From Eledone cirrhosa (taxonomy: Eukaryota): DNA of 64,000 bases. Made by a program: the position numbers and the translations under genes. Positions within the stretch are counted from its first letter, which is position 1, and the number at the start of each line of letters is the position of its first letter. The DNA is taken from assembly GCA_964016885.1 (NCBI GenBank), contig OZ024740.1, positions 35,092,001 through 35,156,000 on the forward strand. The letters run 5' to 3'. The notes under the pieces were generated by a model. The model had not been told where the DNA came from. It saw only the letters and a list, made by a program, of their open reading frames with translations, and did not search any database. This document shows positions 16,432 to 62,405 of this stretch, one piece after another.

Positions 16432-16658
16432 TATAAAAAACATACACACACATATACATACTCACATGCATACACATTGATACGCACGCATATACTCACA
16501 ATCACACGTATAGGTACATATATATAAATGTAGGTGAGGAGGTGAGATTTATTGTAGCACAATAAAACAATGCAAATATCGGATAAGTAGCACTCAACTG
16601 TTTATTGGACTGGAGTATATATAAGAAGAAATTAAAAGATGGTTAAAAAAGTTCCATG

Positions 16659-16729
16659 TATTTTATTATGCGCATTTCAAAAACAAATATCATCTAGGGA
16701 CGATATTTGCGTTCTCATCAGATAAAATA
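16659..16729 (-). ncRNA. Canonical minimal hammerhead ribozyme
   Basis: TATTTTAT-CTGATGA-long stem II-GAAA-TGCGCA-TA-ATAAAATA, with palindromic stem III. Confidence 0.88.
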
Positions 16730-18788
16730 GGGAGACATTGTATGAAGCTTAAAAAAGACACTTGTGAGCAAGGTAGTGTCGAAACAACATATGATAAATA
16801 AAATTAAAAGGATATAGGAGATTAGAAAAAGGAAAGGAAGGGGAGAAGGGTAAGGAAGATGAAGAAAGGAAAAAGAAAAAAGAAGGAAAGGATAACGAAG
16901 AAAGATTATAAGAAGGAGGAAGGAGAGAGAAAGAGAGAGGAGATACAAGAGAGAGATAAACATTTAAACTGAGAAATGCTGTCCCACACAGAGAGATGAC
17001 TGAAAAAAACGGTTGTAAAATTTATAAATAAATTAAATAAATTAATAAGATTTTAAATTTAAAAGTTAATAAGGTTTATGGATGATGATGCTTATGATTA
17101 CAGATATAGAAATTAAGTATACTATTTATTTAGGGTTTAAATAGTGAAGGATTTATTAAGAAGTGCAAAAAATTTATTAAAAAAGTATTATTAACATAAA
17201 ATTTAGTGAAATAAGATAAGGTGAATGAAAATAAAGTTAGATGATTTATAAGCATAGAAGACGATATAGGGTCCTAGTTTGTTTCAATAGATTGTATTAT
17301 AAAAAGTAATTATTTAAGTTTATACAGGCTGGAAAGAGAGAAAAAACGAAAAAATACGAGGAAGAATAAAACATTACATTTTAATCCTAATTATAGAGAA
17401 AGAATTAGCTATATACTTTGTGAAATGACCTAAGCGATTTGTGGATACAAAGCGAAAATAAATCTGTGCGTCTATTTATTATAGAATTAAAATTAGAGAT
17501 AATGGTAAATTATTCCGCTAAGCATAAATTACATGTTCTGGATAGGGAACCATTAAAATAGGGAGAGGCGTTGCAAATTTTTCTTCAATAAATTTTGTAA
17601 TTAATGTTTTTGTCTTTTAAGGACCAGATGAGTTCTGAGAGAGAAGTGTTTGTTCTTTTAAGTGGGTATTTAAAAGATGAAGAATGGTTATATAATCTCG
17701 CCTTAAAGGAAATAGAAGTAGATCCATTTAGATTTATTTTCGCTTTGTATCCACAAATCGCTTAGGTCATTTCACAAAGTATATAGCTAATTCTTTCTCT
17801 ATAATTAGGATTAAAATCTTTTTCTCACACAGATATATTTCTTTTACACCTATATCCCTTTTTCTACCATATCTCAGTGCATTCTACAAAAGTTCATTCA
17901 TACTATAACATTTTTGGTCCCCTAATTGTATAATTTTTTAATTTCTTTTAATAATTTTTTGTAATTTTTAACCTTTTAATTCACTATAGCAAATTTCTTC
18001 TTGGCGATAGAAATTTTTTTCTTTTAAATAGTTCATCTTTATATCATTTTTATCAACATTACTTTTTAGTAGCTTTATCTCCCAATTTTTTACTTCAAAT
18101 CTATTAATATTAGCATTAGGTGCATTTTGTAAACAAATTTTGACGTAATGTTTTTTCTTCCTCGTACTTTTTCGTTTTTCTCTCTTTCCATGCTTGTATA
18201 AATTTAAATAATTACCTTTTGTATTACAATCTATTGAAACAAACTAGGACCCTATATCGTCTTCTATGCTTATAAATCATCTAACTTTATTTTCATTCAC
18301 CTTATCTTATTTCACTAAATTTTATCTTAATACTTTTTTTATAAATTTTTTGCACTTCTTAATAAATCCTTCACTATTTAAACCCTAAATAAATAGTATA
18401 CTTAATTTCTATATCTGTAATCATAAGCATCATCATCCATAAACCTCATTAACTTTTAAATTTAAAATCTTATTAATTTATTTAATTTATTTATAAATTT
18501 TACAACCGTTTTTTTCAGTCATCTCTCTGTGTGAGACAGCGTTTCTCAGTTTAAATGTTTATCTCTCTCTTGTATCTCCTCTCTCTTTCTCTCTCCTTCC
18601 TCCTTCTTATAATCTTTCTTCGTTATCCTTTCCTTCTTTTTTCTTTTTCCTTTCTTCATCTTCCTTACCCTTCTCCCCTTCCTTTCCTTTTTCTAATCTC
18701 CTATATCCTTTTAATTTTATTTATCATATGTTGTTTCGACACTACCTTGCTCACAAGTGTCTTTTTTAAGCTTCATATCATGTCTCCC

Positions 18789-18859
18789 TATTTTATCTGA
18801 TGAGAACGCAAATATCGTCCCTGGATGATATTTGTTTTTGAAATGTGCATAATAAAATA
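18789..18859 (+). ncRNA. Canonical minimal hammerhead ribozyme (mirror copy)
   Basis: TATTTTAT-CTGATGA-GAACGCAAATATCGTC-CCTG-GATGATATTTGTTTTT-GAAA-TGTGCA-TA-ATAAAATA. Confidence 0.85.
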
Positions 18860-18895
18860 CATGGAACTTTTTTAACCATCTTTTAATTTCTTCTT

Positions 18896-18929
<34 letters not shown>

Positions 18930-18937
<8 letters not shown>

Positions 18938-19390
18938 TAAACGGAATAGAAAATGGTAACAAATTGTTCACAGTTGAAAAATGGTTTAATTAGGAATAAA
19001 AGAGTATTAGTAATTGTATGGGTTAGTATTCAGTTGTGGTTTTAAGTTTTTACCGGTTGCGCATTTCTAAATGCTTTTCAAAAATAATTTTGAGTGTCCG
19101 TGTTGTTTGCTCTGATCTGATTAGTTTTGGGAATTCTACCTATTTTTATGTTTAACATAAAAAGAGGTAGAATTCCCAAAACTAATCAGATCAGAGCAAA
19201 CAACACGGACACTCTATCTCAAAATTATTTTTGAAAAGCATTTAGAAATGCGAAACCGGTAAAAACTTAAAAACTTAAAACCACAACTGAATACTAACCC
19301 ATACAATTACTAATACTCTTTTATTCCTAATTAAACCATTTTTCAACTGTGAACAATTTGTCAGCATTTTCAATTCCGTTTACCAATATA
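18930..19390. repeat. Foldback palindrome, arms about 220-235 bp, PLE terminal sequence
   Basis: Axis TTTTTATGTT-T-AACATAAAAA near 19152; same family as 48068-49120. Confidence 0.9.
19228..19264 (+). ncRNA. Hammerhead motif with variant core UUGAAAA
   Basis: TTT-TTGAAAA-GCATTT-AG-AAATGC-GAAA-CCGG-TA-AAA; helix I is weak. Confidence 0.55.
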
Positions 19391-19421
19391 TAATAACTTG
19401 TGTGTTACACCTCTATTCTTT

Positions 19422-19473
<52 letters not shown>

Positions 19474-19625
19474 AGGTGAAATTGGAAATAGCACGGAAAA
19501 TATATTTAAGGATCTGTTTTTCTTCTTTTTTCCTTTCTTTGATATGTCAAAGTGACATTATTGAAAAAATGAAAGGGACAGCTCTTTTAAAAAAGAGTTT
19601 TATAATGTAGATGAAATATATATAT

Positions 19626-19668
19626 TATAACCGGTTTCGATGTATTAGTAAAATCTATCTTATCAAAT
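19626..19668 (-). ncRNA. Degenerate hammerhead motif with core UUGAUAA
   Basis: AT-TTGATAA-GAT..ATC-GAAA-CCGG-TT-AT. Confidence 0.5.
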
Positions 19669-19860
19669 GTTGAGTATTACAATTAAAAAGACTTAATAAG
19701 AATTAAAAATTAAAGATTTAAGATTTAGTGTTGAGGCAAATTTTCTCATCTTACTTGTTGAGAGGGAGACTGGAAAAAATATGCACGCATGTATGTATGT
19801 ATGTATGTATGTATGTATGTATGTATGTATGTATGTATGTATGTATGTATGTATGTATGT

Positions 19861-23500: not shown

Positions 23501-23542
23501 TAGGTACATCCGATTGAAATGTATTTTAAATGTATTTTGAAG

Positions 23543-23626
23543 GATATCTCTTGGTTCGATAAAGAAATAAACAATACTGGAACGCTGTGTACACGTTTAG
23601 CCGTTGATTCTGCTCGGGTGAAAGCG
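23543..23626 (+). CDS. ABCB1: ABCB1-like exon, 84 nt: DISWFDKEINNTGTLCTRLAVDSARVKA
   Basis: aag/gtaagt boundaries; D.SWFD...N.TG.L.TRLA.D motif. Confidence 0.95.
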
Positions 23627-23670
23627 GTAAGTTATTTAAGATTATTATTATTATTATTATTATTATTATT

Positions 23671-26600
23671 GGCGACCTACGTAGTAAATCGTATCATCGT
23701 GAGCTCCGCAAAGGTTTGTTATTTCCGTTTGTTAAAAATTGCCATTTATGGAAAATTTTTATTGTTAACCATATATAAGCGCACATACATTGTTTTCCGA
23801 AAAGGACACCCAAAAAGATTGGGGACTTGTGCCCAACATTTAAACTTTTATTATTATCAAAAAATTTCTTTGAAATAATTGGCTAATTCACCTCTGCACC
23901 AAGCGAAAGCCTTCCTCACAAATTAACACCTCACACCGACACCACCATTGTAAATGTTACTACGTTTGCCAACACTACAAAAAATATAAGCACTAGCAAT
24001 ATTTTAAATTTGTCTCAGGCAGACATTCATTTCCCGCCATTACCAATGACTGCAGGTGTTAAAGCCTCCACCACCGCGACAACCCCCACCCCCACCACCA
24101 CCGCGACAACCACCACCCCCACCACCACCGCGACAACAGAAACAAAAGAAGAAAAAATAAATTAACTCGTGATGTCGAAATGAAATCAAGCAAAATGGAC
24201 TCTTCTCCACCAAAGACGACTGACGTCACCACCACCACAACTGAAACTAAAATTAATATTAACACAAATAACGATAGCAACAACAACAACAATGACATTA
24301 TAAAAACCACCCTCAGTTTTGCCAGAGTAGCAAAACAGTTCGAAGCATTTACGGTAACTCAGGAGGATTTAGAAAATGCCAAACAAATGGTAAAGAAAGA
24401 TGGGTACAGGGTCAGCCCCCCCCACACCTAATACAATGGAGCATCGGCGCCTATGCATCGTGTCGTATCGAACAATAAATGTAAAATCGCGCCGAGTGGA
24501 ACGGGCATCCGAGTCCCAAATCCAAAAAGCTTTGGGACATGTGTGGGCAAGAAAAACCCACATCAGACGTGGGCAGAAGTATGGAACCGTGGACGTGTTC
24601 TTTGTAACACCAGAGGAGGCTAGAGAACACTCCATGGCCCCATTAAGAAGTGACGACTTCACACTCGTCCCAAGCTATTGTGGCCAGAGACTCGTAAAGA
24701 TCAGGGTGACCCACGTTCCACCGGCCATCGAAATTCCCTGGCTAATAGCGGCCGTCTTCGCCGGCATCGAAGCCAACACAAAAATAATAGCAATAGCAAA
24801 AGAAAAGCAGGAGAACTGGTCCGGATCTGGGATGGAGCTCCTGATCCAAGCGGACCAAAAAAGCATTGAGGAGATCCCAGAGGTAATAGACCTCACTGAC
24901 GGCAGCCACCTCACGGTAATTGTCGAGGGCAGAAGACCTAGGTGTGTCGTTTGTGGTGAAGGAACCCACCTAAGCGCTTTCTACCCTCAGGCTAAAAGGT
25001 TGAGGCCACCTCTCCTACCCACCCCAGTGACACAACCACCAACACCACCAGTAGCAGAGATGGCAGCAACAACTGTAGCAGCAACAACAGAAGCAACTAT
25101 AACAGCAACAACCCCAGCAACAGTAGCAAAACCAACACCACCACCACCATCAGCAAAACCAACACCACCACCACCCAACGCTTCAGAACTAGCACCAGCG
25201 CCTACACCATCCACCACGCCACAAGCAAAACTAACGCCTGTGGAGGATTTTCCACTCCCCGGCCTATCACAACTGGAGACAGATTGTGACGACGAGGAGT
25301 GGGAAACGATATCCGGAAAAAAAAAGAAATCAAAAAAGAAAAAATTCTCTTCCTTCCCCCTCCAAAAACAAAATACAGAGGGAAACAAATAAATTAAGAA
25401 ACAAAAAAGTTAGGACAGATATGCCACCATCCACACCAGCATCACCAACCCCATCAACCCAAACACCAACACCATCACCATCATTAACCCCAACACCACC
25501 ATCACCTACATCACAAAAGTCACCAAAATGCGAAACAGAAACAAACCCACAACAAACGCAAACAAAACAAAACAACCAAAACGATACACACTACACAGAA
25601 TTAAATCTGAACAACAAGCAATTATTACACTACATCCAACACAACACCAGCATCACAGAAAAAGACTACACAACAACCCAAAAATTCGCACCACCTCCAC
25701 ACATACAAATCACTCGCATCACACAGAAAACGTACATGACACTGAAAAAAAAAATTCCCCAAAGACATCGGAGACTTCCGACAAGCACTCTCCAGGAGGA
25801 TTTATAAGGACATCCTTCCTGAGGAGGCCACAAGCAGTGAAAAGGATGGAAAAACCGTCCTTCCCCTACGAGAAGTAAGGTAAGTGGTCTTTCCCATCTT
25901 TTCCACTCCTTTTCAACATGACCTCACTCAGAATAGGCAGCATAAATGCGCGTGGCTTGGGGTCGTCATGGAAGCAGGGCCACCTGCTCAACGACCTCAG
26001 GTCACTAAACATAGATGTAGTGGCCATCAGCGAGACCAGAATCTCCGAAGCACAGGCTTTCGCACCGATCTTCGGCGGCTACGATATGTACGCATCTCCC
26101 AGCCGTCCGGGATCGGGGGGGAGGAGTTGCTGTGCTTTTTCGGAGAGGTTTGGATCTTGCCATACGGGCCATCTTCCTGGACCCAGAAGGTAAGTTGGTG
26201 GTGCTGGACGTGACCAGCGGAGACGGGCAAGCTTTCAGGTTAGTGGCCGTCTATGCCCCGACAGGAGCAGGGCGGCCTGATTTCTTCCGGCGTCTGGAGA
26301 CCTTTCTTGGAACGTCCCGCTCTTTAGTGTTAGTGGGCGACTGGAACGGGATCTTAGATGCACGCTGGGATTGTGTGGGATTAGTGGGTAGGGAAGGCGG
26401 GTGCAAGAGTCTCACCAACCTGCTCAGACGTTTTGAACTGTCTGACAGGTACCGAATGGATTTCCCGAATGTACCAATGTGGACTTGGACAAATCGCATA
26501 GGGTCATCCAGATCATATCTAGATAGAGTATTTTGTAGGGAAATAGATAGGTCTAGCATAGGCTGTCCACAATTCAAGATAGTCAGCTACACGGACCACA

Positions 26601-29156
26601 AATTCGTGATCTGTGTGCTTGACTTAGATAGGCTTCATAGACGAGGACCCGGCTACTGGAAGCTAAACGCGTCCTTACCAGCGCGCAAGGCCTACAGAGA
26701 CCGGATTAGCGAACTAGTTAAGCGGGCGTTGACGGGGGCCATCGTCAACAACAAGTGGTGGTTTGCTCTGAAAAGAGCAATTAGAATAGAGTCCATTAGG
26801 TTTAGTAAGACTTTAGCAATAGAGAAAAATATAGCAGAGGGAGAATTAGTTAGAAAATTAGATGAGGCGCTTAGCAAAGGCATCGCGACCGACGTACTTG
26901 CGGCGAAATTGGCCCTTGACCAATTCTTCAATGCAAAGCACGAAGGCTGCGTTGTCAGAGCTAGGGTGCGTGCTCTCAGACACGAGGGGACGAAAGCCGT
27001 TCAATGGGCCCGAGTGGCGGAGGCGCGTCAAGGCAACTAAGCCACGATCCGGTCTTTGGTGGACCACGACGGGCGCACGCTACTCGATCCCGGGCAAATG
27101 TGTGAAGCTTTTCAGCGACACTTCGCTCAACTGTTCGGGGGAAGTGGCGGGCCGGATCGAGGGATGGACTTTAGTGTCTACCTCGACGGACTGCCGCGGC
27201 TTTCGGCCACTGAGGCGGAGTGTTGCGAAAAGCCGATAACAACCGCTGAAGTACGGGATGCAATGACTAGTTGCACAAGGGGTAAATCGCCTGGTTTGGA
27301 TGGTCTGCCCTATGAACTTTACGTACAAATGCCAGACTTGTTCGGAGGCCTCTTGGCGGACGTCTACTGCAACTGGCAACAGAACGGGAGAATTCCCAGC
27401 TCTGTGAGCCGAGGAGCGGTGGCGCTGCTGAGAAAGGATCCGAACGAGGGGGATAACATAGATAATTTTAGGCCCATAACTCTGCTAAAAACAGAGTTCA
27501 AGATTTTGGCCAAGGTGCTAGCAAAGAGGTTGGCGCTTGTCGTTGGTGGTCTGGTGGGAGAGGCACAGACATGCGCCATTCCCGACAGATCCATCCACGA
27601 CAACCTCCACCTCATGCGATACATCGTAGAGAGGGTAGCTAGGGAACCTGGCACGGGTGGGTCTTTGATCAATTTAGATCAGTCGAAAGCCTTCGATAGG
27701 GTCGACCATCGTTACCTAGCGGCAGTCCTGAGGGCGGCTGGCTTTGTGCCCGTCTTCAGAGGCTGGATCGCTGCCATGCGGACAAAAACTGGGACGAGGT
27801 GACGTGCAGGGTGGCTTCTCTCACCCAGAAATGGGCCGAGAGGAAGCTATCCCTGAAAGGTCTAGCGGAGGTGGCTAACGCGTACATCGCGTCCGTCATC
27901 TACTACCGCCTGACCGTCGTACCTTGTCCTAAGCCCCGCCTGACTGCGCTGGAGCGTTTGCTCTTTCGCTTCTTGTGGAAGGGACGCGCTCCGATGGTCA
28001 GGCGGTCCATATGCTGTCAACACCCGCTACGTGGAAGGCTGGGCATGCCGTGGCTGATGATGCGCAGACACGCGCTCAGGCTACGACATCTCCACCTCTT
28101 CCTCGACGGTGATCAGGTGTGGTCGCCGTTTGCTAGACACGTTTTTCCCCAGCTCGTCTCCTTGACGGAGCTGCAGTCCTGGGTCAAGCGAAGACCGAGA
28201 GGGAGCGCTTGGAGACTGGAATGTCTTCAGGCGCTCACAGCCCTCGACCAATCGGGCAATGTAATCGGTGGAAACTCCACCTTGGCGTTCTATAGGGGAT
28301 TAGTGGAGGGGAAGAGCGACGACGTACTTGGAGAAACTCTAGGCGTCGATGAAAATCAACTAGCCAATCTCTTCGGAAGGACTTTCGGGCCGGGGCCTAA
28401 TGACAACTTTCAGAAATCCCTGGCCTGGCAGTGCTACCGGTGTGCTTTGCCAGTTCGGGATAAACTTTACAGGCATGGAGGTGCCGTCAGCCGGGCATGT
28501 CCCAGATGCGCACAGGGCGACGAAACCGTCCTGCACGCACTCGTCCAGTGTCCGAGCATTGCTGACTTGTGGGTTTATGTCGAACACCTGCTGTCACGTG
28601 TAGGACGGATCCAGCTATCAGCTGAGTCCATCGTGAGGATTGCCCCGCCCTCTTCCTTTAGCCGGGAAGGGCGGGCAGTTTTTATCTGTCTTGTGGCCAT
28701 GGCGAAAGAGATAGTATGGTGGACACGTTTGAAAGGGCTGAAGACGAGCACTTACCTCTTCGGTGATGCCCTGATTAACTTATTCAAATTTCATCTGAAA
28801 AGGAAAATCAGAGTAGAGAGGGAAGTGCTCTCTTCCCAGCATTTTGTTGAAAGATGGGTGAGAGAAGCAAGTATGGCCCGAATGAATGGGCCTTCTCTGA
28901 GTATGTGTCTGTAAATTAAAGGTGGAAAACTGGGAGAGGGCACTTGCCCTGGTGGTCAGGGCCACTGTGGTCTTTTAATGGGCTTTCTCCACAAATGTCC
29001 CTTGGAAGTCTCCCCCCTATTGGGGAATTTTTCTTTGTTATTTTATTTCAACCTCTGTTTTTTTACACGCAGAAATGCCCATTTGTACCGTCCTGTATTG
29101 TCCTGTACTGTCCTTAATGTCTACTTTATGTGAACCCTTGTGGTTAATAAAGAAAC

Positions 29157-38355: not shown

Positions 38356-40830
38356 TTGAACCTAAGCAGATGTGCGAGGCTTTTCAAAAGCACTTTGCCA
38401 GATAGTTCGGAAGGGGCGGGGAACCGGTTGGGGAAGTGGACTTCGGTCCATACCTCGACGGCCTGCCGCGTCTCTCGAACAGGGAGGCGAAGTCCTGCGA
38501 GGAGCCGATTTCAGCCGCTGAGATAGAGGACGTGCTGAGCCAATGCGGCAAACGCAAATCCCCGGGTCTCGATGGTCTTCCATACGAACTATATCTAGCT
38601 ATGCCGGACTTGTTCCCCGATCTCCTCGAGGCAGTCTACTGCAACTGGCAACAGAACGGGAGAATTCCCTGTGCTGTGACCAAGGGAGTAGTCACGCTAG
38701 TGAAGAAGGACGAAAACAAGGGGGACGATATAAATAATTTCAGGCCCATAACTCTTCTAAATACATAGTTACAGATTTTGGCCAAGGTGCTAGCAAAGAG
38801 GTTGGCGCTTGTCGTGGGCAACCTGGTGGGAGATGTGCAGACATGTGCTATCCCATCCAGGTCCATCCACGACAACCTTTACCTCATGCGATACATCATA
38901 GAGAGGGTTGAGAACGAACTCGGCTTTGGTGGGGCCCTGATCAACTTCGATCAATCTAAGGCGTTCGATAGGGTCGACGATGGTTACCTGGATGCGGTGC
39001 TAGCGGCGGCTGGCTTCGGACCCGTTTTCAGGGGTTGGATCAATGCCATGCACAGCGGCCGCGTCTGCTCTAGGGTCAAGGTGAACGGCTACCTCTCGGA
39101 GCCGTTCGAAATCGCGCGGTCCATCCGACAAGGGTGCCCTCTCTCCTCCCTTCTGTATGTAATGACTCTAGAGCCACTGCTGCGGAAGTTGGAGTTGTTG
39201 CAGGGCATCCCGTTGGAACAGTAATGGTGTCGACGGCCTCGGAAATCGGGGCGATCGGCACCTTACTGGAGGAGTACGAAAGGTTTACAGGGGCTAAGCT
39301 GAACCGGGACAAGTCGATCGGTCTGCAACTCGGCATGTGGAGGGGCAGATCGATGCCCTCTGATAGCGTCGTCGGGCGCTGGACGGAGGGCCCGGTGAAG
39401 TTGCTCGGGGTCTGGTTCGGACCAGACCTCCAGGTGGAGAAGAACTGGGGTGAGCTAACGAACAGGGTGTTTGCACTGACCCAGAAGTGGGCCGAGTGCA
39501 AACTGTCCCTGAAAGGTCGGGCAGAGGTGGCGAACACTTATATAGCATCCGTCATCTACTACTGCATGACCGTCGTGCCTTGCCCAAGGGAAACGCTCGC
39601 CAAAATGGAGCGCGCACTCTTCCAATTCCTTTGGAAGAAGCGGGCTCCTATGATGAGGAGATCCATCTGCTGTCAACACCCTTCGAAAGGAGGGCTGGGG
39701 ATTCCGTGGCTAATGATACGTAAACACACATTAGGGCTACGGCACCTCCAGGTATTCCTCACCGGTCAACCGGTGTGGGCCCCGTTTGTGAGGCGAGCCT
39801 TTCCCAGACTCATCTCACTCACCGAGCTGCAATCCTGGGTCAAGCAAAGACCGAGAAAACTGGGCGCCTGGCACACCGAGTGTGCCCAGGCGCTCACGGC
39901 TCTCTGGCAGGCGAACCCGGCTGTCAGTGGAGAATCCACCTCATCATTCTATAGAGGGCTGGTGGTTAGCAGGTGCGACGACGCCCTCGGAGCAGCCCTA
40001 GGCATGGAGGAAGACGAACTGGCCAACCTGTTCGGTAGGATATTCAGCCCGGGACCCATGGATAACTTCCAGAGGTCCCTGGCCTGGCAGTGCTACAGAA
40101 GAGCTCTGCCCGTTCGAGAAAGGCTCTACAGACACGGGGGCCCGGGTAGGGACCCCTTGAAAAAGATCTGTCCCAGATGCGTGTGCGACGAGGAAACCGT
40201 TGCACACTCATTGGTACACTGCTCGGGCATTGCCGATCTGTGGGGCTATGTCGAACAACTGCTGTCAAGTGTGGGACCGATCCGGTTCACCACCAAGTCT
40301 ATTGTAACGATCAAGCCGCCTCCCCTCTTCAAACACGAAGGAGAGGCGGTGTTTCTCTGCGTAATAGCCATGGCGAAAGAGGTTGTATGGTGGACGCGTC
40401 TGAAAGGACTGAGGTTAGACACCTTTCTCTCTGGCCATCAGACTATAGGTGAGGAAGAAGGATCAGGATGGAGAGAGAGGTGCTGCACCCCAGCCGTTTT
40501 TATGAAAGATAGGTGAAAGTGGCGAGAATGGCCCGTGTGAATGGGCCTTCACTCTACACCAGACTATAGGTGTGGAAGATGAAAGATCAAGGGAGCACCC
40601 CCTCTCTGTGCTCCTGAAGAGAAGGGTTGCACACTTTTTTCGGGGGTGTATGCGACCCCCAAGGCGCCTCTTCCCTATTGAGGACTTTGTTATAAAATTT
40701 ATTTTGTTATATTTTATTTTATTTTTATACTTTGTTATTGCCTCCTCCTTATTGAGGACGCCTTTTCATGTAAACTCCCCCATTGTACTTGTCCCACTTT
40801 TTGATGCCCTGGTGGCAAATAAAAAGAAAA
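38356..40830 (+). mobile_element. 5'-truncated Tx1/L1-clade LINE with 10-bp TSD
   Basis: TSD TTATCTATCC at 38346-38355 and 40831-40840; KSPGLDG, RQGCPLS, CPRC..HSLVHC. Confidence 0.94.
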
Positions 40831-41104: not shown

Positions 41105-43251
41105 ATTATATTATGTTATAAGTGAATCCCTTATATATAATGCTATTAATTTATATATTTAATTATAAATATCATTTATTTTCCTATAATACATTAAATG
41201 TCCTATTATATTATTATCTATCCATTACTGAATATAATATAAGTAAGCTATAGTAGTTATATTAAATGGTGGTAACTTTATGTTTATTCCTAATAGTTAT
41301 TGTAGAGTATAAGGTTTGAGATAAATAGGAGTTAAGTAGAAGAATGAGCTGATCATAGAGTGTGATACTGTGGGGGTAATTATATGCTGATAAGACCTAG
41401 AGGTGAAGTGTTAATGGTGGTGAGAAATTCAGATCTGACATTGTTATATACTAGCAGCTAGGTTTAAAGTTATGGAAAGAGTGTCGGTGGTAGTGTTGGC
41501 ACATGGAAAAAAATCTCTGATTTTCTATTTAGGAGTTCTAGTTTCGAATAGATTATAGTGCGGGTCTCTAGAAGACAGAGGTTACATAATTTATTTGGTG
41601 GTTTATTCGATGCGGCCCTATCTATTACTTCCCATTGAAGTGTATATGGTCTATTCTTTGTTTTCAGAGAGTGTATGTAGTTAGATAAAGAAGTGGAGTT
41701 GGCTAGATTGCGAGTTTTGAAAGTGTGGAGATGCGAGTTATATCTCGTCTTGAAGTAGTTCGAAGTTGAACCGATATATGTTTTTGAAGAGTTGTTTGTG
41801 TTGACTGTGCATGAGTAAATGATGTCTTTGATTAAGCAATTTTTACCTAAGGGGCAAGTTCTATTTGTTCTACAGTTACAGTTATTCTGGTTGTTTGCTT
41901 GCCGGTTACTATGTTGTGTAGATGCCTGGTTGTTAGGGATAGCATTAGAGTAATGATGGTTGTCGTTCTCATTGTTATTAATTTCATTAGTGCTATTATC
42001 ATTATTATTATTGCTACCAGAAATCTCTGGTACTATGTTGTTATGTAAGTTTACCCTCTGTTGTGATTTAATTAGTTGGAAATAATTATTAATCTTCCTT
42101 TTATTACTACTAGCTATATGGTATGCGATGTTAGGTGTGGTAGAGTAAGAGATTTTAATGGTATTTTTATTGGTAAGATTATGGTATTTGTGGCCGACTG
42201 GGAAGTTTTTTTCCAGGATTGAGAAGAAAGCCTTATGCAAGTTGGTAGAGACGTTTAGATTGAAAGAGGGATTGAAAAATGTATTAGTTCTATTTTTTTT
42301 TTGTAATGTTATTTGAGGTATTGTTTATATTTCTGTTTATATTATTATTGTGCTGTTTATTCTGGTGCGAGTTAAGTTTGATATTACCCTTCGTATTAGA
42401 GTTAGAGCGGCTAGTACTATTAATATTTTTCCTCATGGCCATATTGTGAGAAATAATGTTGTAACTAGGTGATTTTATAGGTAGAAATTTAATCTCATTT
42501 TTATGGCCTGATTTAGCTAAGGCCTCATTATAGTATTGGGAATTATTGTTAAATATTGTTTCGTTATATGATAGATTAGAGATTCTATTTGATATTCCTT
42601 TAGTATTTGAGTTTAATATGGATTTAGGGTGGTTAGAGCTGATATCTACATAAAGTAGTTTTTCGTTTGGTTTATGAGAGGGTGTATATATTTTAGAGTC
42701 CAGGCAAAGGGTAGCATCAAGGAAGTTAACGTTTTTAGTGTGTTTATCTAAGGTAATACCTAAGTTGAAGTTTTTGAAAATTTTATGTAATTGTTTCCTA
42801 GTTCTTTCTATATTAAATTTTTTATAGTCAATAAGAAGTAGTGCTTCATCGCGGTATAAACCACCATTGAGGTAGGGTAGGTTCTTATGAATTTTATTTA
42901 AGAGATATAGGCCCACCAAATCAGTGACCTGCGCCGAGTCACTAGATTCCTTAGTTATGTCAAAGTTGTTATGTGTATCCTTGTGGGTCCATAATTGATC
43001 TTCAAATGTAATTATGGTTTTTCGGGCTGCAAGGATGACATCAATTTGGGATCTAGTAAGGTCATTATTGTTCATAGCCATAATTATTGCCTTATTTAAT
43101 AGGATAGGGGAAATAGAGGTGTAGTATGAGTTAATATCAAATTGTATAATTTTTTAATTTTTTATTCTCTTTAATATCATTGAACCATTCAATAACTTCA
43201 CCAGTATTTCCCCACTGGTTAAGATACATTTTATGCTTAAATTGGAGGATG

Positions 43252-43489: not shown

Positions 43490-44130
43490 ATATATATAAA
43501 GAAAAAGAGATGAAATCGAAAATGCAACTGGAGTCTTGTTTTTTTTTAAAATATATATATTTATTTGGTTCCTTTACCGGTTTCGCAGTTGTTCTGCTTT
43601 TCAAAAGGTGAGTTGAGATGGAGGGTCTGTGGCTTTTCTCACATCTGGTTGGTCTCTGAATGTTACTTGTTTTATATGGAAAAAGTGGCTCGAAATGCCA
43701 GGTTTTTCGAGAAGTAATTTGATTGGTTTGTCAATAATTATAATAAATTTCGCGCCAGTTCGCGTTACAATAGTTCTTCAAATAAGAGAGGGGGGGTTGT
43801 CACAGGTTGTTTTTTCATATATGAGTGTTTGAATTTCTTTTTACTTGAAAAAAGGAGGCTCACGAAGCCTTTTTTTTGGTTGGTTATAAATGAAATTATG
43901 GCTGTCACGTGAACAAATTTTCATTAAATTTTCGTGCCCTTATTTGGAAATCCATTCTGTAGCCTTTTTAGAGAATTTTTTGATAAGTGAAAGATAATGG
44001 TCAAGAGAAAGGGATGGGAGAATTGTTCTGGTTCAGTGAATATGGTTAGTTCGCTGGGGTGTCAGAATTCAGATTTTCTATTGAATAAAGAAAGTAAAGA
44101 TATGTGTGTTTATTTGTGTGCTTGTCTGTG

Positions 44131-44174
<44 letters not shown>

Positions 44175-44918
44175 TGTGTTTGAATTTCTTTACTTTCAAA
44201 AAAGGTGGCTCACAAAGGCTTTTTTTTAATAAACGTGATTTGATTGGTTATAAATGAAATTTGGCTGTCACGTGAACAAGTTTTCATTACATTTTTGCGC
44301 CCTTATTTGGAAAACTATTCTGTAGTCTTTATAGCGAATGTTATGACAATGGAAAGATAGTGGTCAAGAGAAATGGGATTGGGAGAATTGTTCTAGTTCA
44401 GTGAATATGGTTAGTTCGCTGGGGTGTCAGAGTTCAGATTTTCTATTGAAGTGAAGATATGTATGTATATTTGTGTGCTTGTGTGTGTGTATGTGTGTAT
44501 TGGAAGATGATTCTATTAGTAGAAATGGGGGAGGGAGTTGTGTGTGTGTGTATATGGGTGTTATGTGTGTGTGTGCGAGTATGTTAAGATGGAGAGAATA
44601 TATATTTTGTGTGTGTGTATATATATGTGTGTAGGAAAGTGGTTCTATTAGTACTAATAGAACCACTTTCCTACACACATATATATACACACACAAAATA
44701 TATATTCTCTCCATCTTAACTTACTCGCACACACACACATAACACCCATATACACACTAATTTCTACTAATAGAACCACTTTCCTACACACATATATACA
44801 CACACACAAAATATATATTCTCTCCATCTTAACATACTCGCACACACACACATAGCACCCATATACACACACACACAACTCCCTCCCCCATTTCTACTAA
44901 TAGAATCATCTTCCAATA

Positions 44919-44957
<39 letters not shown>

Positions 44958-44990
44958 ACACACAAGCACCTCGGTTATTTTTCATTTTGT
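43490..44990 (-). mobile_element. Non-coding PLE 3' segment with a roughly 350-bp internal duplication and a terminal foldback
   Basis: 43825-44090 is similar to 44178-44450; inverted repeat centred on CTATTAGTACTAATAG near 44652. Confidence 0.65.
43571..43608 (-). ncRNA. Minimal hammerhead ribozyme with compensatory U3-A8 core
   Basis: CCTT-TTGAAAA-GCAG-AACAA-CTGC-GAAA-CCGG-TA-AAGG; helices I and II fully paired, palindromic stem III. Confidence 0.8.
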
Positions 44991-45035
44991 AAAAAAAACC
45001 TCACTTTCTAATATATATATATATATATATATATT

Positions 45036-45329: not shown

Positions 45330-47510
45330 TATATAAATAAATAAAAAAGTATAAAATTATAAAATAGGATAATAAAAATCTTTAGAGTCTAAATCAGCTG
45401 CTATATTTAGTTGTTATTGCGTTTTCGGCCAATGCTATAGAACAGGTATATAAATTGAGATTAGAAGATACTAAATATATAAAAAAATTATGAAATTGGA
45501 TAGTAAAAATTAATAAAAAAAAACTCTAGAGTCTAAAACAACTGTTATATTTAGTTGGTATTGAGTTTTCAGCCAATGCTATATATAATTTACTGGGGTG
45601 GGGGTACTGAGTCTACAAAAGCCCGATGGGCTGCCTCGGGTTAGGCGAAAGGGGAAAAAGGAAAAGGAAGAGGATAGGGAGTGGAAGGAAGTGATAGGAA
45701 GAGATAAAGGTAAGAAGAAAATGTTATACTTTTTTCTTTATTTATTATCTTCTCTTCTAATCTCATTTTATTTACCTGTTCTATAACGTCCCCTCTCTAT
45801 TTTCTCCAGAATCTTTTTTTCGCCTGCGTCCTATCTAGCCTATTGTCATCCACACTCCTTAGAATTTGCTGTATAGAATTCAATTTCTACGCTTGACCGG
45901 CTCCACCCACTCCCTCATTGTTCTACGGCAAGTTCAGCCACCCCACCTCCTACCCATTGCCATGAAAGATTTAATGGTGGTTACAAGAAATGTTGACCAA
46001 TCCTTTTGACAACTACAATCTTCCCATATAAAGAATTACCCCTTGAAAAGTTCGGCTTTTTATTTACCACACTAAAAATTCTCATCTAGTCCAGAAATAG
46101 TCGTCGAAACGGCTTGAGCTCTGCCGTCGAGGTTAAACTTTTTCCTATTACCCACTCTACTACCCTAAGTATTGAGTACTCTGGTGCGTTATGCTCTCTC
46201 TGGTTCCTTACCACAATTCCTTCGTTATATATTTATATATATATATATATTCTAAGGAGTGTGTATGACAATAGGCTAGATAGAACGCAGGCGAAAAAAG
46301 ATTCTGGAGAAAATAGAGAGGGGACGTTATAGAACAGGTAAATAAAATGAGATGAGAAGAGAAGATAATAAATAAAGAAAAAAGTATAACATTTTCTTCT
46401 TACCTTTATCTCTTCCTATCACTTCCTTCCACTCCCTATCCTCTTCCTTTTCCTTTTTCCCCTTTCCCCTTTCGCCTACCCCGAGGCAGCCCGATGGGCT
46501 GCCTCGGGGTAGGCGAAAGGGGAAAAAGGAAAAGGAAGAGGATAGCCTCAGTACCCCACCCCAGTAAATTATATATAGCATTGGCCGAAAACGCAATACC
46601 AACTAAATATAACAGTTGTTTTAGACTCTACAGATTTTTTAAATTAATTTTTACTATCCAATTTCATAATTTTTTTATATATTTAGTATCTTCTAATCTC
46701 AATTTATTAACCTGTTCTATAGCATTGGCCGAAAACGCAATAACAACTAAATATATATTTCTATTTATTGCCACGAGGGCGCAAAAGAAGAGGACAAATA
46801 CAAGGAGGGAGTTTACACAAAAAAGGCGAGTAAAGAAAACAAATAAATATAAAATTAACAATAAAGTCCTCAATAGGGAGGAGGCGTTTTGGGGGGTCGC
46901 CCCCCCCCCGAATAAAGTGTGCAACCCTTCTCCTCAGGAGCACAGAGAGAGGGTGCTCCCTCGTTCCTTCATCTTTTCCATCTACAGGCTGATGTAGAGA
47001 GAAGGCCCATTCACACGGGCCATTCTCGCCACTTTCACCCACCTTTCATAAAAACGACTGGGGTGGAGCACCTCTCTCTCCACCTTGATCCTTCTTCCGA
47101 AATGATATCGGAAGAAACGGATCAGTTGTTGGCCAGAGAGAAAGGTGCCTGACCTCAGTCCTTTCAGACGCGTCCACCATATAACCTCTTTCACCATGGC
47201 TATTACGCATAGAAACACCGCCTCTCCTTCATTTTTGAAGGGGGGAGGGGGCTTAATCATTACAATGGCTTCGGTGGTCAACCGGATCGGTCCCACCCGT
47301 GACAGTAGTCGTTAGTCATAGCCCCACAGATCGGCTACGCCCGAGCAGTGTACCAATGCGTGTGCAACGGTTTCCTCGTCGCACACGCATCTGGGACAGA
47401 TCTTTTTGGCGGGGTCCCTACCCGGGCGCCCTAAATATAGCAGCTGTTTTAAACTCTAGAGATTTTTATTATCCTATTTTATAATTTTATACTTTTTTAT
47501 TTATTTATTA
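45330..47510. repeat. Inverted repeat, probably PLE-derived: 45330-45863 vs 46250-47510, right arm interrupted by a Tx1
   Basis: ORFs 45598..45786(+) and 46327..46602(-) share an identical C-terminus. Confidence 0.85.
46756..47430 (-). mobile_element. Tx1/L1-clade 3' fragment with 9-bp TSD
   Basis: TSD CTAAATATA at 46747-46755 and 47431-47439; close to 40140-40830; the empty site is preserved in the opposite arm near 45400. Confidence 0.92.
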
Positions 47511-48040: not shown

Positions 48041-48067
<27 letters not shown>

Positions 48068-48074
<7 letters not shown>

Positions 48075-48769
48075 TAAAAGGAAAAGAAAATGCTGACAAT
48101 TTTTTCCCAGTGAAAAATAGTTTAATTAGGAATAAGTATAAATTAGTAATAAGTATTGGTTAGTATTCAGTTTTAGTTTTAAGTTTTTACCGGTTGCGCA
48201 TTTCTAATGCTTTTCAAAAATAATTTTGAGATAGAGCGCTCGTGATGGCTCTAATCTGATCAGTTTTGGAAATTCTTCCTGTTTTATGTGAAAAAAGTGG
48301 CTCCAGAGGTATTAAGATTTGGTTGGTTGTTGAATGTCACGTGAATGAGTACTATAAATTTCGCGCCAATTCGTGTTGCAAAAATTCTTGTAGTCAAAAC
48401 AATTTTGATTGGTCGGTAGAGGTCACGTGAATGTTAAAGATTGATTTTGCGCCAAATGTAGGTTTGTCGAAGAGTGTCCTTTTTCGCCTGATTGAGAAGT
48501 CACTGAAAAATAAGTTTATTAAGACAAATATGTGTGTGTGTGTAGTAAAGAGTTTCATTGTTGTGATAATGGTCAGTAGGGATGTGTGTGTGAATTGCAG
48601 TCATGTTGAAAGGTTAACAGTTCAGGTGTCTATTAAGACAAATATGTGTGTGTGTAGCAGTGTGGTTCGTGGTAGAGGAAATAAATTTGGTCAGTAGGAA
48701 TGTGTGTACGTGTGTGGGGGATATTTTAACATGTTGAAAGATATTTTTCAGCTCTTGTCTTATACGGAG

Positions 48770-48862
<93 letters not shown>

Positions 48863-48867
48863 TGTGT

Positions 48868-48920
<53 letters not shown>

Positions 48921-49120
48921 TATATTAGTGTACGCGTGTGTATCACGAGCGCTCTATCTCAAAATTATTTTTGAAAAGCATTAGAAATGCGCAACCGGTA
49001 AAAACTTAAAACTAAAACTGAATACTAACCAATACTTATTACTAATTTATACTTATTCCTAATTAAACTATTTTTCACTGGGAAAAATTTGTCAGCATTT
49101 TCTTTTCCTTTTACTAATAT
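48068..49120. mobile_element. PLE-derived element with inverted terminal arms of about 180 bp
   Basis: 48068-48246 is the reverse complement of 48942-49120; the arms carry TTGAAAA-GCATT-AGA-AATGC-GCAA-CCGG-TA. Confidence 0.85.
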
Positions 49121-49169
49121 ATCACAACTCGTGTGTTACACCTCTATTTTTTAATATATATATATATGT

Positions 49170-58552: not shown

Positions 58553-61500
58553 TTCGAAGGTATCTTAGTTAGTTTTTATGACGTTATTATTGTTAATATT
58601 ACTACTGTTTTTCTGCTGTATTATTGATAAATTTTCGAAGGTATCTTAGTTCCTATGACGTTATTATTGTTAATATTACTGCTGTTTTAACTTCGGATAT
58701 TTACCATGCGGTATTCTAATTCTATCGTATCTCTCTCGGTTATTTACCATGCGATCCCCAGTGCCTACCTCACAATTTCCCTCACACCACCATAGCCTAT
58801 TCGACCAATCAAACCTCAGCATGCCATTTCCACGACTGCTGCTACTACTACCTAACTAACTCTCTCCTCCTCTGGCGCAGCCCAACACACCCTGCCATTA
58901 TCCCACCACCACTGTTCTTCTAGCCCTCAATTTTCCCACCGTTATGGATGGATGAGCTGAGAATAAATTTGAGCAACTCTGAATCAATAGATGAAATATG
59001 AATCTGCGAGCTACCAAGCACCCACGTGAAGCGCCAACCCAGAGACCCTCCCCTACGAGTGTCGACAAATGCCCAAAACTCCGAGTTGGTACCATCAATG
59101 TAGGCTCAATGAAAGGAAGAGCAGGAGAAATCGTAGAAATGCTAGAGCGAAAGGAAGTTGATGTATGCTGTGTGCAAGAGACAAGATGGAGAGGAGAGTC
59201 TGCCAGAGTCCTCGTAGGAAAAAGTCGGTGCTACAAATTTTTCTGGATGGGAAATGACGATGGGATGGGTGGTGTAGGTATACTACTAGCTGACAAGTGG
59301 GTAGATAAAGTAATCTCAGTGTACAGGGTAAACGCAAGAATCATTAAACTCAGACTAGTCCTGAATAAAACAATTACCACAATAATATCAGCTTACGCAC
59401 CCCAATCGGGGCTGCCAGACGAACTTAAGGATAGGTTTTACGAGTCCCTAATACACACTACTGCTCTAACAGACGACAAGGACTTCCTAATCATCGCAGG
59501 AGATTTTAACGGACACGTAGGTAAACACTGCGACGGCTACAATAGAGTACATGGAGGCCATGGGGTTGGCACAAGAAATGAGGAAGGATTCAGACTTCTA
59601 GAATTCTGCGACGCCAATGACATGTCGATATGTAACACAAACTTTAAAAAACCCGACAACTACCTGATCACCTATAGATCAGGGGAGCACTCTAGTCAGT
59701 TAGATTTTATCCTCATCAGAGGACGTGACAGATGGACGGTCGTAAACACAAAAGCCTTCCCTAGTGAGGAATGTACATCCCAACATAGCTTAGTTGTCAG
59801 CGACCTCACGGTCAGAACTAGACGAGCCCTGAAACAGAGGCCAACCTGGAGAAGAAAGATCTGGAAGCTGAAAGTCCCCTCAACCAGTAACAGATTTAAA
59901 GATATTTTACTCAACGCCTACGACAGTAAAGAAGAACAGATAGAGACATTTAATGTAGAAGAGAACTGGGAGTTCCTAAAAAATAATTTACTAGAGGCGA
60001 CGGACGAGGTCTGTGGCTGGAGTAAGACCTCAAGCAGGAGGAGAGTGACTTGGTGGTGGAACAATAAGGTAGATGAAGCAGTCAAGGCCAAGAGACAGGC
60101 ATGGAAAGAATGGAAGAACGGGGGGAGCAGGGTACATTACATAGAGACCAAGAGGGAAGCTAGGCGACAAGTATACTTAGCTAGGAGGGAAGCAGAGGAT
60201 AGAAAATTCAAGCATGTTTTACAACGTGAGGACCAGAAACAGGAGGTATTCAAGATTGCGAGGCAGTGTGTCAGAGATAGTTGTGATGTCATTGGAGAGA
60301 AGTGTATCCAGAATGATAAAGGTGAGCTTGCCCTCGCAAGTGCTGAGAAGAAAGATGCATGGAAGAGTCATTATGATAGATTACTAAATGAGGAGAATGC
60401 ATGAGAAGAAGAGACCCTACCCCAAGTAGACCCTATAGAGGGACCAGCAGTACAAGTCAGCGGCAGCGTAGTAAGTAAGGCAATCAGAGATATGAAGATG
60501 GGGAAGGCAACCGGTCCATCGGGTATAGCTGCCGAGATGCTGAAGGCATCTGGGTCTGTAGGTCACACTATAACCACACGTATCGTTAACCAGGTAATAC
60601 TAGAAGGGGCCATACCAAAAGATTGGTGCAGTAGCATCATTGTCAACTGCTACAAAGGTAAAGGCGATGCACTAGATAGAGGAAACTATAGAGGTATAAA
60701 GTTGATGGACCAGGTCATGAAAGTAACAGAAAGAGTTATAGCACAGCTGATTAGGGACCGGGTGAAAATAGACGAGATGCAATTTGGGTTTGTACCAGGA
60801 AGAGGCACCACTGATGCCCTCTTCCTTGTGAGGCAATTACAGGAAAAGTACCTAGCTAAAAGTAAGCCACTCTACCTGGCATTTGTCGACCTTGAGAAAG
60901 CCTTTGACAGAGTTCCACGCGCTGTAATCTGGTGGGCTCTTAGAAAACTAGGAGTAGATGAATGGCTTGTGAAAGCGGTACAAGCCATGTATAGGGGAGC
61001 AGTCAGCAAAGTTAGGATTAGCAATGAGTATAGCGAGGAATTTAGCGTACAGGTTGGGGTCCACCAGGGCTCTGTTCTTAGCCCTCTCCTGTTCATCATA
61101 GTCCTGCAGGCAATAACAGAGGAGTTTAAGACCGGATGCCCATGGGAACTCCTGTATGCTGATGACCTCGCACTCATAGCTGAATCTATGGTAGAACTAG
61201 AGAATAAATTCCAAACCTGGAAGCAGGGACTAGAAAGAAAGGGTCTCAAAGTCAACATGACAAAGACTAAGGTCCTTGTAAGTAGACGAGAAAACAGAAC
61301 CCAGATCCCCTCAGGGAAATGGCCTTGCTCAGTATGTAGGAAAGGTGTAGGTAGGAACTCCATTCTCTGCCCCAAATGCAAACAATGGGTACACAAGAGA
61401 TGTAGCGGGATCTCAGGAAGCTTAATTAAGAATGTAGGATTCACATGCAGCAGCTGTGCTGAGACAGCAAACAGCAAACAGCCACAGGAAACAAGTACCA

Positions 61501-62405
61501 CCAATCTCTGGGAGGGCCCTGTAGAAACAGTTGACAGCTTCTGCTACCTAGGTGACCGAATTAGCAACGGAGGTGGGTGTTCAGAAAGTGCAATAACTAG
61601 GGTAAGAACGGGATGGAAGAAGTTTAGGGAACTACTACCACTGCTAGCTGAAAAAGGCTTCTCCCTCAGAATGAAAGGCAGACTGTATGATGCGTGTATC
61701 CGAACAGCGATGTTGCATGGTAGTGAGACCTGGGCGCTGAAGTTGGAAGACTTACGTAGATTAGAGAGAAACGAAGCCTGCATGCTCCGATGGATGTGCA
61801 ACAATAATATACATGAACGACAAAGCATAAATGAATTGAGAGAGAGACTGAGCATAAGAGGAATCAAATGCTGTGTGCAGGAGAGGCGGTTGCGCTGGTA
61901 TGGACATGTGATACGTATGAAGGATGATAGCTGCATAAAAAGGTGCAGAGTACTAGAAGTTGATGGAAACCGCGGAGTGGGGAGACCCAAGATGACCTGG
62001 GATGAGGTGATAAAAGCCGACCTTACCCAATTACACCTCTCAAAGACAATGACACACGACCGTGAATTCTGGCGTCACGCAGTAATACAGAGTACCCGAC
62101 CTCCCATGGGTACAAGCTGAAGCATATAGACAATATGCCCCTACGCCCCCCACCGCAAGGTGGTCGTGGAGGTGCCACGGAAAAAAGCACCCAGCCCACA
62201 CTGTAAAGTGGACGTGTAGGCGCCACGGAAAAAATGTACCCAGCACTCACTGTAAATGAGGTTGGTGTTAGGAAGGGCATCCAGCTGTAGAAACCAAGCC
62301 AAATCAGTTCCTGTATGAGCAAGGCATGGTCAGCCGACCAGACACTGCCCACAACAGGACAACCCATCTAACCCATGCTAGCGTGGAAGAACGGACGTAA
62401 AACGG

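What the first reader, a model, noticed from the sequence alone, without database searches (positions are those of the whole stretch)
43571..43608. Minimal hammerhead ribozymes with a compensatory U3-A8 core (UUGAnAA) recur in several Penelope-like termini
Seen: CCUU-UUGAAAA-GCAG(AACAA)CUGC-GAAA-CCGG-UA-AAGG. The same double change occurs with unrelated stem II sequences at 19228-19264 (UUGAAAA) and 19626-19668 (UUGAUAA), always with the palindromic ACCGGU stem III. It also occurs in the 48-49 kb arms. Established: positions 3 and 8 form a tertiary Watson-Crick pair (normally C3-G8), and PLEs carry minimal type I hammerheads thought to work as dimers. Inference: this is a selected, covarying PLE ribozyme lineage that searches for CUGAnGA would miss.
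Basis: partly seen in the sequence, partly recalled or inferred. Interest (0 to 1): 0.75.

Follow-up and report, generated by a model that had tools for sequence, protein, structure and literature searches.

The report
Variant hammerhead of Neptune retrotransposons
This is a real hammerhead-shaped RNA motif with an already published U-A swap in its core, at the end of a truncated Penelope-type jumping gene; the swap marks about a third of the roughly 75,000 such motifs counted in this genome, but self-cutting is only predicted and is likely slow.

Summary
Confirmed: a minimal type I hammerhead with U3-A8 lies at 43571-43608 (minus strand). It ends a 5'-truncated, inverted copy of the 3' region of a Neptune-clade Penelope-like element (PLE); the RT/GIY-YIG fragment beside it is an unrelated Hydra-clade PLE. 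Genome-wide, U3-A8 with ACCGGU gives 23,342 matches; U3-G8 201, C3-A8 249 and the decay control G17 194, so mismatches are sporadic decay. A second U3-A8 family (3,020) belongs to Hydra-clade PLEs whose sister families keep C3-G8 (about 48,500). The variant is published for PLEs (Schistosoma, PMC4209133), and this scan noted it before elsewhere in this and other genomes. Corrections: the 19.2-kb and 48-kb motifs are a sister family of this one, not unrelated, and 11 of its 13 arms seen read GCAA (A13C), a damaged core that still amplified. Copies of the focal family begin about 70 nt before the cut (1 of 67 at it), and U3 can pair with A17, so cleavage is likely slow or dispensable. Independent origin in two clades is inferred, not shown (p-AU 0.199). 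New member of a known kind.

The parts
43571..43608 (-). Minimal type I hammerhead motif, family A: stem I 4 bp, core U3-A8 (UUGAAAA), stem II 4 bp, GAAA, palindromic ACCGGU, A17; predicted cut between 43575 and 43574
43495..44653 (-). Main arm of the insertion: 5'-truncated 3' UTR/pLTR of a Neptune-type PLE (86% identical to the 3' UTR behind the RT/GIY-YIG ORF in L046); ends 80 nt after the predicted cut, at a (TA)n run
44646..45034 (+). Inverted second arm of the same insertion (44646-44969 upstream UTR, then 44967-45034 the family's 3' tail; the hammerhead part is missing), followed by (TA)n
41470..43244 (-). Adjacent but separate broken Hydra-clade PLE RT/GIY-YIG fragment (CxCX5C linker); not the carrier of the focal motif
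19231..19261 (+). Family C U3-A8 motif with GAAA (minority form of this family), right arm of inverted pair 18928-19392
19051..19081 (-). Family C motif, left arm, core reads GCAA (A13C)
48188..48217 (-). Family C motif with GCAA (A13C), left arm of inverted pair 48066-49122
48971..49000 (+). Family C motif with GCAA (A13C), right arm
19629..19666 (-). Family B U3-A8 motif (UUGAUAA, U17, 2-bp stem I) in a copy spanning about 19461-19727
16667..16721 (-). Canonical C3-G8 minimal hammerhead (family G, stem III AUGCGCAU) in the left arm of inverted pair 16616-18905; internal control for the variant
18797..18851 (+). Partner C3-G8 motif of family G in the right arm (stem III AUGUGCAU)

Best explanation
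The motif is a minimal type I hammerhead with a U3-A8 core at the 3' end of a truncated Neptune-clade Penelope-like retrotransposon, and it is predicted to cut RNA after GUA only as a dimer and likely slowly. Shown: the sequence, its fixation across several Neptune-type families whose RT proteins are 47-61% identical, its position about 1.0-1.8 kb behind the ORF end and again in front of the ORF in tandem copies, and compensatory changes in stem I across families. Inferred: the 3-8 tertiary pair was exchanged C-G to U-A (likely via U-G) in an ancestor of these families and kept by selection on master copies; two motifs in a tandem transcript would pair through the ACCGGU palindrome to build helix III; the short stem I, the possible U3-A17 pairing and the absence of copies starting at the cut suggest that most template RNA is reverse-transcribed uncut, so cleavage likely serves a late or accessory step. 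This copy is a non-coding, dead-on-arrival insertion.
For: Counts in G000: U3-A8 23,342 (control 63); U3-G8 201 (50); C3-A8 249 (30); G17 194 (8): each single change is about 0.8-1.1%. Position 7 is free (3,393 matches with a base other than A). Window arm aligns at 86% over 1,192 columns to the UTR that follows an RT/GIY-YIG ORF in L046; same link in L002/L047 (one locus) and L297. Family D motif lies on the ORF strand behind the ORF in 12 of 12 loci of a 98-99%-identical young family. Linker CX4CXXC, DKG and EN spacing match Neptune rows of PMC8557442 Fig. S2. In 19 hand-picked family representatives the first two stem I pairs, which were not in the search patterns, are Watson-Crick in 18 and 17 (shuffle means 6.1 and 7.1). 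Family X has flanks 68-77% identical to U3-A8 family F but reads C3-G8 in 2 and U3-G8 in 2 of 4 copies. Dimer helix ACCGGU -8.3 kcal/mol; closing helix III in the monomer costs 5.4 kcal/mol. U3-A8 is active in vitro according to PMC3088659 section 8.
Against: No cleavage datum for any of these motifs. Family C, a sister of family A, reads GCAA in 11 of 13 distinct arms seen, in two subfamilies, with copies 97-98% identical, so an intact core is not needed for amplification there. Family A copies start at the cut in 1 of 67 hits (0 of 15 incidental) but 62-74 nt upstream in 28 of 67 (7 of 15 incidental) (52 hits come from loci chosen for a whole motif, which biases against cut starts); C3-G8 families G and J lack cut starts too. 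Stem I is only 1-2 bp in families B, D, E. The 3-8 pairing score (18 of 19) is circular, as patterns selected those bases, and relatedness is not controlled. Family X copies were picked from G8 searches. Only 3 loci tie family A to an ORF; none ties family C.
Confidence: 0.8

Rival explanations
1. The fold is kept, but not for cutting: the palindrome and stems act as a dimerisation or protein-binding signal near the RNA start and RT start sites, and the core drifts as long as the shape holds.
For: A13C family C amplified; templates of family A mostly uncut; U3-A17 pair in the minimum-energy fold, the analogue of the inactive C3-G17 trap (PMC3884650 passages); in the Anolis element, ribozyme mutants did not affect insertion in vitro and no reads began at the cut (PMC11167929 section 3 part 2); the young 832-aa Hydra family shows no hammerhead under my descriptors.
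Against: G5, A6, A9, G12, A14, U16.1, a non-G17 and a pairable 3-8 are kept across families whose flanks do not align, which is the signature of catalysis; only family C departs. The core bases were also part of the search patterns, so other departing families would have been missed.
Confidence: 0.25
2. U3-A8 is plain AT drift: two transitions towards A/T happened once in a master copy and were multiplied passively.
For: Both changes go towards A/T in a window of mostly 30-45% GC; copy number reflects few masters; all ACCGGU families may descend from one event.
Against: U3 and A8 persist across Neptune families with RT identity of 47-61% while position 7, position 17, stems and flanks turn over; the same double change sits in a Hydra-clade family with a GC-rich stem II; the larger C3-G8 families in the same AT-rich genome did not drift.
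Confidence: 0.07
3. The U3-A8 ribozyme arose once and reached both Neptune-type and Hydra-type elements by descent or by swapping of the 3' module, rather than by two independent changes.
For: The RT tree does not reject holding all seven U3-A8 rows together (p-AU 0.199, quick tree, long branches).
Against: The best tree needs 2 changes, with family H inside the Hydra group; RT identity between the two groups is about 22%; flanks of H do not align with any Neptune-type family and stem III differs; canonical cores are reported for Hydra elements (PMC8557442 section 11) and fish Neptune elements (PMC4209133).
Confidence: 0.15

Closest known systems
U3-A8 minimal hammerheads of Schistosoma mansoni Cercyon PLEs (Cervera and de la Pena 2014, PMC4209133; parts 1-2 of 4 and supplement 2 part 2 read)
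   Same: PLE-borne minimal type I hammerhead, U3-A8 covariation, short helix I, palindromic helix III, mostly single or opposite-strand copies 100-700 bp apart.
   Different: About 26,400 copies here against about 1,300; carriers are Neptune-type and Hydra-type; 4- or 6-nt palindromic insert in helix III; family A lacks the extra base after A9; A17 here against U17 or G17 in the two listed S. mansoni motifs.
Neptune clade of C-terminal EN+ PLEs (Craig et al. 2021, PMC8557442; sections 3 and 11, passages, supplement part 54 read)
   Same: Single RT + GIY-YIG ORF, CX2-5CxxC linker with long spacer, two cysteines between GIY and YIG, inverted truncated copies, 3' tail, microsatellite targets, hammerhead near the 3' end.
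   Different: Tail of family A is about 90 nt (ends at +80 and +170) against the 30-40 nt given; hammerhead core is U3-A8 in all linked families seen.
Hydra clade of PLEs (PMC8557442 section 11)
   Same: DKT, RW[KR], CxCX5C linker, CxxC before the conserved E, (TA)n targets in families G, H, J and the window's 41.5-43.2 kb fragment.
   Different: The paper reports canonical hammerheads; here family H has U3-A8 and one young family shows none under my descriptors.
Natural U3-A8 hammerheads in Perreault et al. 2011 (PMC3088659; section 8 and passages read)
   Same: Same core covariation, stated to be active in vitro.
   Different: Not described there as PLE-linked dimeric minimal motifs.
Poseidon element of Anolis carolinensis, PAc (PMC11167929; passages and section 3 part 2 read)
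   Same: Two fixed 3' ends (tail), hammerhead close to them, uncut RNA as main template.
   Different: C3-G8 core, Penelope/Poseidon clade, activity shown (protein-assisted).

Membership tests
Minimal type I hammerhead of PLEs (min-HHR, incl. U3-A8 variant) | Core YUGANRA / GAAA / UH with a pairable 3-8 | tested here: met
   UUGAAAA...GAAA...UA at 43575-43604; not met by family C arms with GCAA
Minimal type I hammerhead of PLEs (min-HHR, incl. U3-A8 variant) | Helix I and helix II around the core, with compensatory changes between families | tested here: met
   4 + 4 bp in the focal copy; stem I pairs 1 and 2 Watson-Crick in 18 and 17 of 19 family representatives
Minimal type I hammerhead of PLEs (min-HHR, incl. 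U3-A8 variant) | Helix III too short for a monomer and palindromic | tested here: met
   ACCGGU; intermolecular duplex -8.3 kcal/mol, monomer closure +5.4 kcal/mol
Minimal type I hammerhead of PLEs (min-HHR, incl. U3-A8 variant) | G10.1-C11.1 pair, usually after one unpaired base | tested here: inconclusive
   G-C present in the focal copy, extra base absent; varies between families
Minimal type I hammerhead of PLEs (min-HHR, incl. U3-A8 variant) | Self-cleavage after position 17, as a dimer | not testable with these tools
   No assay possible; genomic copies rarely start at the cut
Minimal type I hammerhead of PLEs (min-HHR, incl. U3-A8 variant) | Match to an Rfam hammerhead model | tested here: not met
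   No hammerhead family among 72 matches at E up to 10, for this motif or for the canonical ones in the window; the models do not cover such minimal forms, so this is uninformative
Neptune-clade PLE (carrier) | RT followed by C-terminal GIY-YIG in one ORF | tested here: met
   L046: RVT_1 5.5e-07 and GIY-YIG 8.3e-07, both above cut-off; L117: RVT_1 only. The window copy itself has no ORF
Neptune-clade PLE (carrier) | CX2-5CxxC linker with long spacer, DKG, CxxC between GIY and YIG | tested here: met
   Motifs in L046, L117, L163, L223, compared by eye with Fig. S2 rows
Neptune-clade PLE (carrier) | Placement with reference Neptune RTs in a tree | not tested
   No reference proteins were in the script machine; trees hold only this genome's copies
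Neptune-clade PLE (carrier) | pLTR structure: tandem or inverted copies, tail, microsatellite target | tested here: met
   Inverted arms 43495-45034 between (TA)n runs; 3' ends at +80 (24) and +170 (27) of 67 hits; tandem motifs about 4.8 kb apart in family D
Hydra-clade PLE (families G, H, J; window fragment) | DKT, RWK-like motif, CxCX5C linker, CxxC before E, no CCHH | tested here: met
   Motif scan of L097, L214-L216, L219, L307, L312 (not every motif is readable in each broken copy); definition
Non-LTR retrozyme | Short non-coding tandem units of about 170-400 nt, each with a hammerhead | tested here: not met
   The 330-nt internal duplication (43822-44141 / 44173-44498) carries no hammerhead, and family A continues into an ORF in L046

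The most novel reading that the evidence does not exclude
One genome holds a natural dose series of the PLE ribozyme: canonical C3-G8 families, two independently arisen U3-A8 lineages that are self-braked by a U3-A17 pair, a family caught at C3-G8/U3-G8 on a U3-A8-like background, and a large sister family that amplified with a broken core (A13C). If so, PLE hammerheads are tuned down or dispensable for transposition, and the long-open question of what they are for can be tested with matched natural sequences.
Probability: 0.3. Interest if true: 0.5.

Novelty: new member of a known kind. Interest (0 to 1): 0.28.

Why it matters
The variant itself is published, so the finding mainly extends its range: about 26,400 of about 75,000 motifs counted in four stem III classes are invisible to CUGAnGA descriptors such as the one used in PMC8557442, which matters for claims that some PLE families lack hammerheads. 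The side results (A13C sister family, uncut templates, U3-A17 trap) supply natural constructs for asking whether PLEs need to cleave their RNA.

Tried and rejected
Rfam scan: no hammerhead model hit. The adjacent RT/GIY-YIG fragment as carrier: rejected; its relatives in loci L066-L115 (50 loci, some overlapping) show no motif at a fixed place behind the ORF. The 115 'C3-G8 + ACCGGU' matches: mostly one family in which GAAACCGGUC is part of stem II and the true stem III is AUGAUCAU. Recurrent C3-A8 strings CTGAAAACGTGTGTT and CTGAGAAAGGAG: no stem II or no stem I, not hammerheads; six identical C3-A8 family A copies about 9.6 kb apart on C1 look like one duplicated segment. Purine at position 3 with a 6-nt stem III insert: 2,058 matches against 2,249 control, no family seen in the first 100 (the 4-nt insert was not searched). 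An apparent link between families G and H was a microsatellite artefact. TTGATAAGGCTATGG strings are antisense ORF sequence. Sequencing runs: no RNA holder listed, so no reads were laid. Cut-site starts reported in note e1-9529586 for a Hydra-type family: 0 of 41 hits of family H start at the cut in my biased loci; not reproduced, not refuted. One-clade test for U3-A8 not rejected. Lunse et al. 2017 and Przybilski and Hammann 2007 were not held, so their tests of core variants are unseen; supplement 1 of PMC4209133 was not searchable. Paper searches: 'hammerhead'+'U3-A8' 1 paper, +'U3A8' 0, +'A13C' 0, +'octopus'+'Penelope' 1 listed.

Full report
Observation. The window comes from a 3.0-Gb animal genome (G000:C1:35092001-35156000) and is packed with retroelements and microsatellites. 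The pattern TTGANAA N8-30 GAAACCGGTH has 3 matches in the window and none in any of 100 shuffles. Three of the four family C motifs in the window (19051-, 48188-, 48971+) read GCAA, not GAAA, and family C is homologous to the focal family outside the motif (67-73%). Canonical C3-G8 motifs are also present at 16667- and 18797+. Rfam finds no hammerhead here, not even those.

Genome counts (forward plus reverse; reversed-pattern control in brackets). With ACCGGU: U3-A8 23,342 (63), C3-G8 115 (162), U3-G8 201 (50), C3-A8 249 (30), U3-A8 with G17 194 (8), U3-A8 with position 7 other than A 3,393 (45). The three single changes each amount to 0.8-1.1% of the main class and mostly sit in the same families, as decay after insertion would give. 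With a 6-nt insert YGYRCR: U3-A8 3,020 (135), C3-G8 24,455 (3,094). With AUAUAUAU and a stem II constraint: 24,109 (6), of which 99 of the first 100 listed are C3-G8. U3-A8 is thus about 26,400 of about 75,000 matches (35%), uncorrected for background and limited to these stem III classes. Of the first 100 matches, 82 belong to the focal family A.

Carrier. The motif lies 80 nt from the end of an insertion that spans 43495-45034 between (TA)n runs: a main arm 43495-44653 that is 86% identical to L046 2458-3610, and an inverted arm ending in the family's tail. In L046 this UTR follows an RT + GIY-YIG frame; two more loci link family A to such a frame. A related young family D (103 scored matches, 98-100% identical, many with 777-aa frames) carries its own U3-A8 motif on the ORF strand behind the ORF in 12 of 12 loci and again in front of it in tandem copies. 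Families E and E2 are linked likewise; B is linked only weakly, C not at all. These proteins have DKG, a CX4CXXC linker with a long spacer and two cysteines between GIY and YIG, as in the Neptune rows of PMC8557442 Fig. S2. The RT/EN fragment next to the motif (41470-43244) has the CxCX5C linker of the Hydra clade, and its relatives carry no motif at a fixed place; it is a neighbour only.

Second lineage. The ACGUACGU family H (U3-A8) and the large C3-G8 families G and J all follow Hydra-type frames. In RT trees of this genome's copies (19 rows, one row of 96 aa dropped; 14 rows, quick method) Neptune-type and Hydra-type groups are separated by a long, fully supported branch (about 22% identity), and the U3-A8 label needs 2 changes. 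The test that forces all U3-A8 rows together was not rejected (p-AU 0.199), so two origins are inferred from parsimony, non-alignable flanks and published canonical cores in both clades, not shown.

Selection. Copy counts do not test selection; families do. Across 19 hand-picked family representatives, stem I pairs 1, 2 and 3 are Watson-Crick in 18, 17 and 10 cases against shuffle means of 6.1, 7.1 and 5.4; these bases were not in the patterns, but relatedness is not controlled. The 3-8 score (13 U-A, 5 C-G, 1 U-G) is circular. Family X (four old copies, picked from the G8 searches) has flanks 68-77% identical to U3-A8 family F and reads C3-G8 twice and U3-G8 twice; I saw no X-type stem among the first 100 rows, which suggests a C3-G8 master and a true double change on a homologous background. 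Three further single C3-G8 copies of A- and E2-type are near the 1.6 expected from two independent 0.8% changes.

Mechanism. The monomer folds stems I and II; closing helix III within one molecule costs 5.4 kcal/mol, whereas two ACCGGU palindromes pair at -8.3 kcal/mol, in line with the dimer model and low in vitro activity of PLE motifs (PMC4209133; review PMC6765202 passages). The minimum-energy fold also pairs U3 with A17, the counterpart of the inactive C3-G17 trap (PMC3884650 passages); 11 of 14 U3 families and 5 of 5 C3 families have A17, so A17 is probably inherited rather than chosen, but it would brake only the U3 forms (inference). Family A hits start 62-74 nt before the cut in 28 of 67 cases and at the cut in 1; among 15 hits in loci fetched for other reasons, 7 and 0. 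The upstream pile likely marks the RNA start (inference; CCAAT-, E2F- and E-box-like words upstream are recalled motifs, untested). C3-G8 families G and J also lack starts at the cut. This fits the Anolis result that uncut RNA is the main template and that the ribozyme is protein-assisted (PMC11167929). Family C shows GCAA in 11 of 13 distinct arms, in both of its subfamilies (one of the two GAAA arms was selected by the pattern), so it amplified with a core expected to be damaged (the importance of A13 is recalled; the search for A13C found no paper).

Comparison. U3-A8 in PLE minimal hammerheads was described in 2014 for S. mansoni (about 1,300 hits, motifs), and natural U3-A8 covariation in 2011. 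In the searchable library only the 2014 paper holds 'U3-A8'; Lunse et al. 2017 could not be read and may cover more variants. Earlier notes of this scan report the same variant in this and other genomes.

Verdict. Real and conserved, ordinary in kind: a new member of a known variant. Interest 0.28.

Noticed in passing
window 18928-19392 and 48066-49122; L293, L060, L064, L182, L251: Family C reads GCAA (A13C) in 11 of 13 distinct arms; 8 incidental arms outside the window against 12 for family A suggest thousands of copies (rough). No ORF linked.
   Followed up: partly
family A copies in L001-L315: 5' starts pile up 62-74 nt before the predicted cut and 3' ends at +80 and +170; families B, G, H, J have their own fixed 5' starts (-106 to -123, -124, -196, -104/-85).
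   Followed up: partly
L284:4740+, L285:4966+, L286:847-, L287:4762+: Small old family X with flanks homologous to U3-A8 families F/E2 but C3-G8 or U3-G8 cores.
   Followed up: partly
L096-L098 (1.3 kb behind the 832-aa ORF); window 41470-43244: A young Hydra-clade family with many intact frames shows no hammerhead under strict or relaxed descriptors; its long 3' UTR may hold another structured RNA.
   Followed up: partly
L227-L232: Low-copy U3-A8 motifs with ACGUACGU or ACGCGCGU stem III and distinct stems; no PLE frame found within about 6 kb upstream.
   Followed up: partly
window 2677-about 5300: 48-bp tandem array of about 49 overlapping 300-nt matches.
   Followed up: no
window 13960-15957 and 58995-62120: LINE-type frames with RT and a PHD finger; further APE/RT/zf-RVT fragments at 26021-28914 and 38769-40516.
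   Followed up: no
window 23504-23878: Weak ABC_membrane match (E 1.7e-05, below cut-off), possibly a host exon.
   Followed up: no
window 45402-46755 and 46453-46535: Nested long inverted repeats around a GC-rich perfect hairpin.
   Followed up: no
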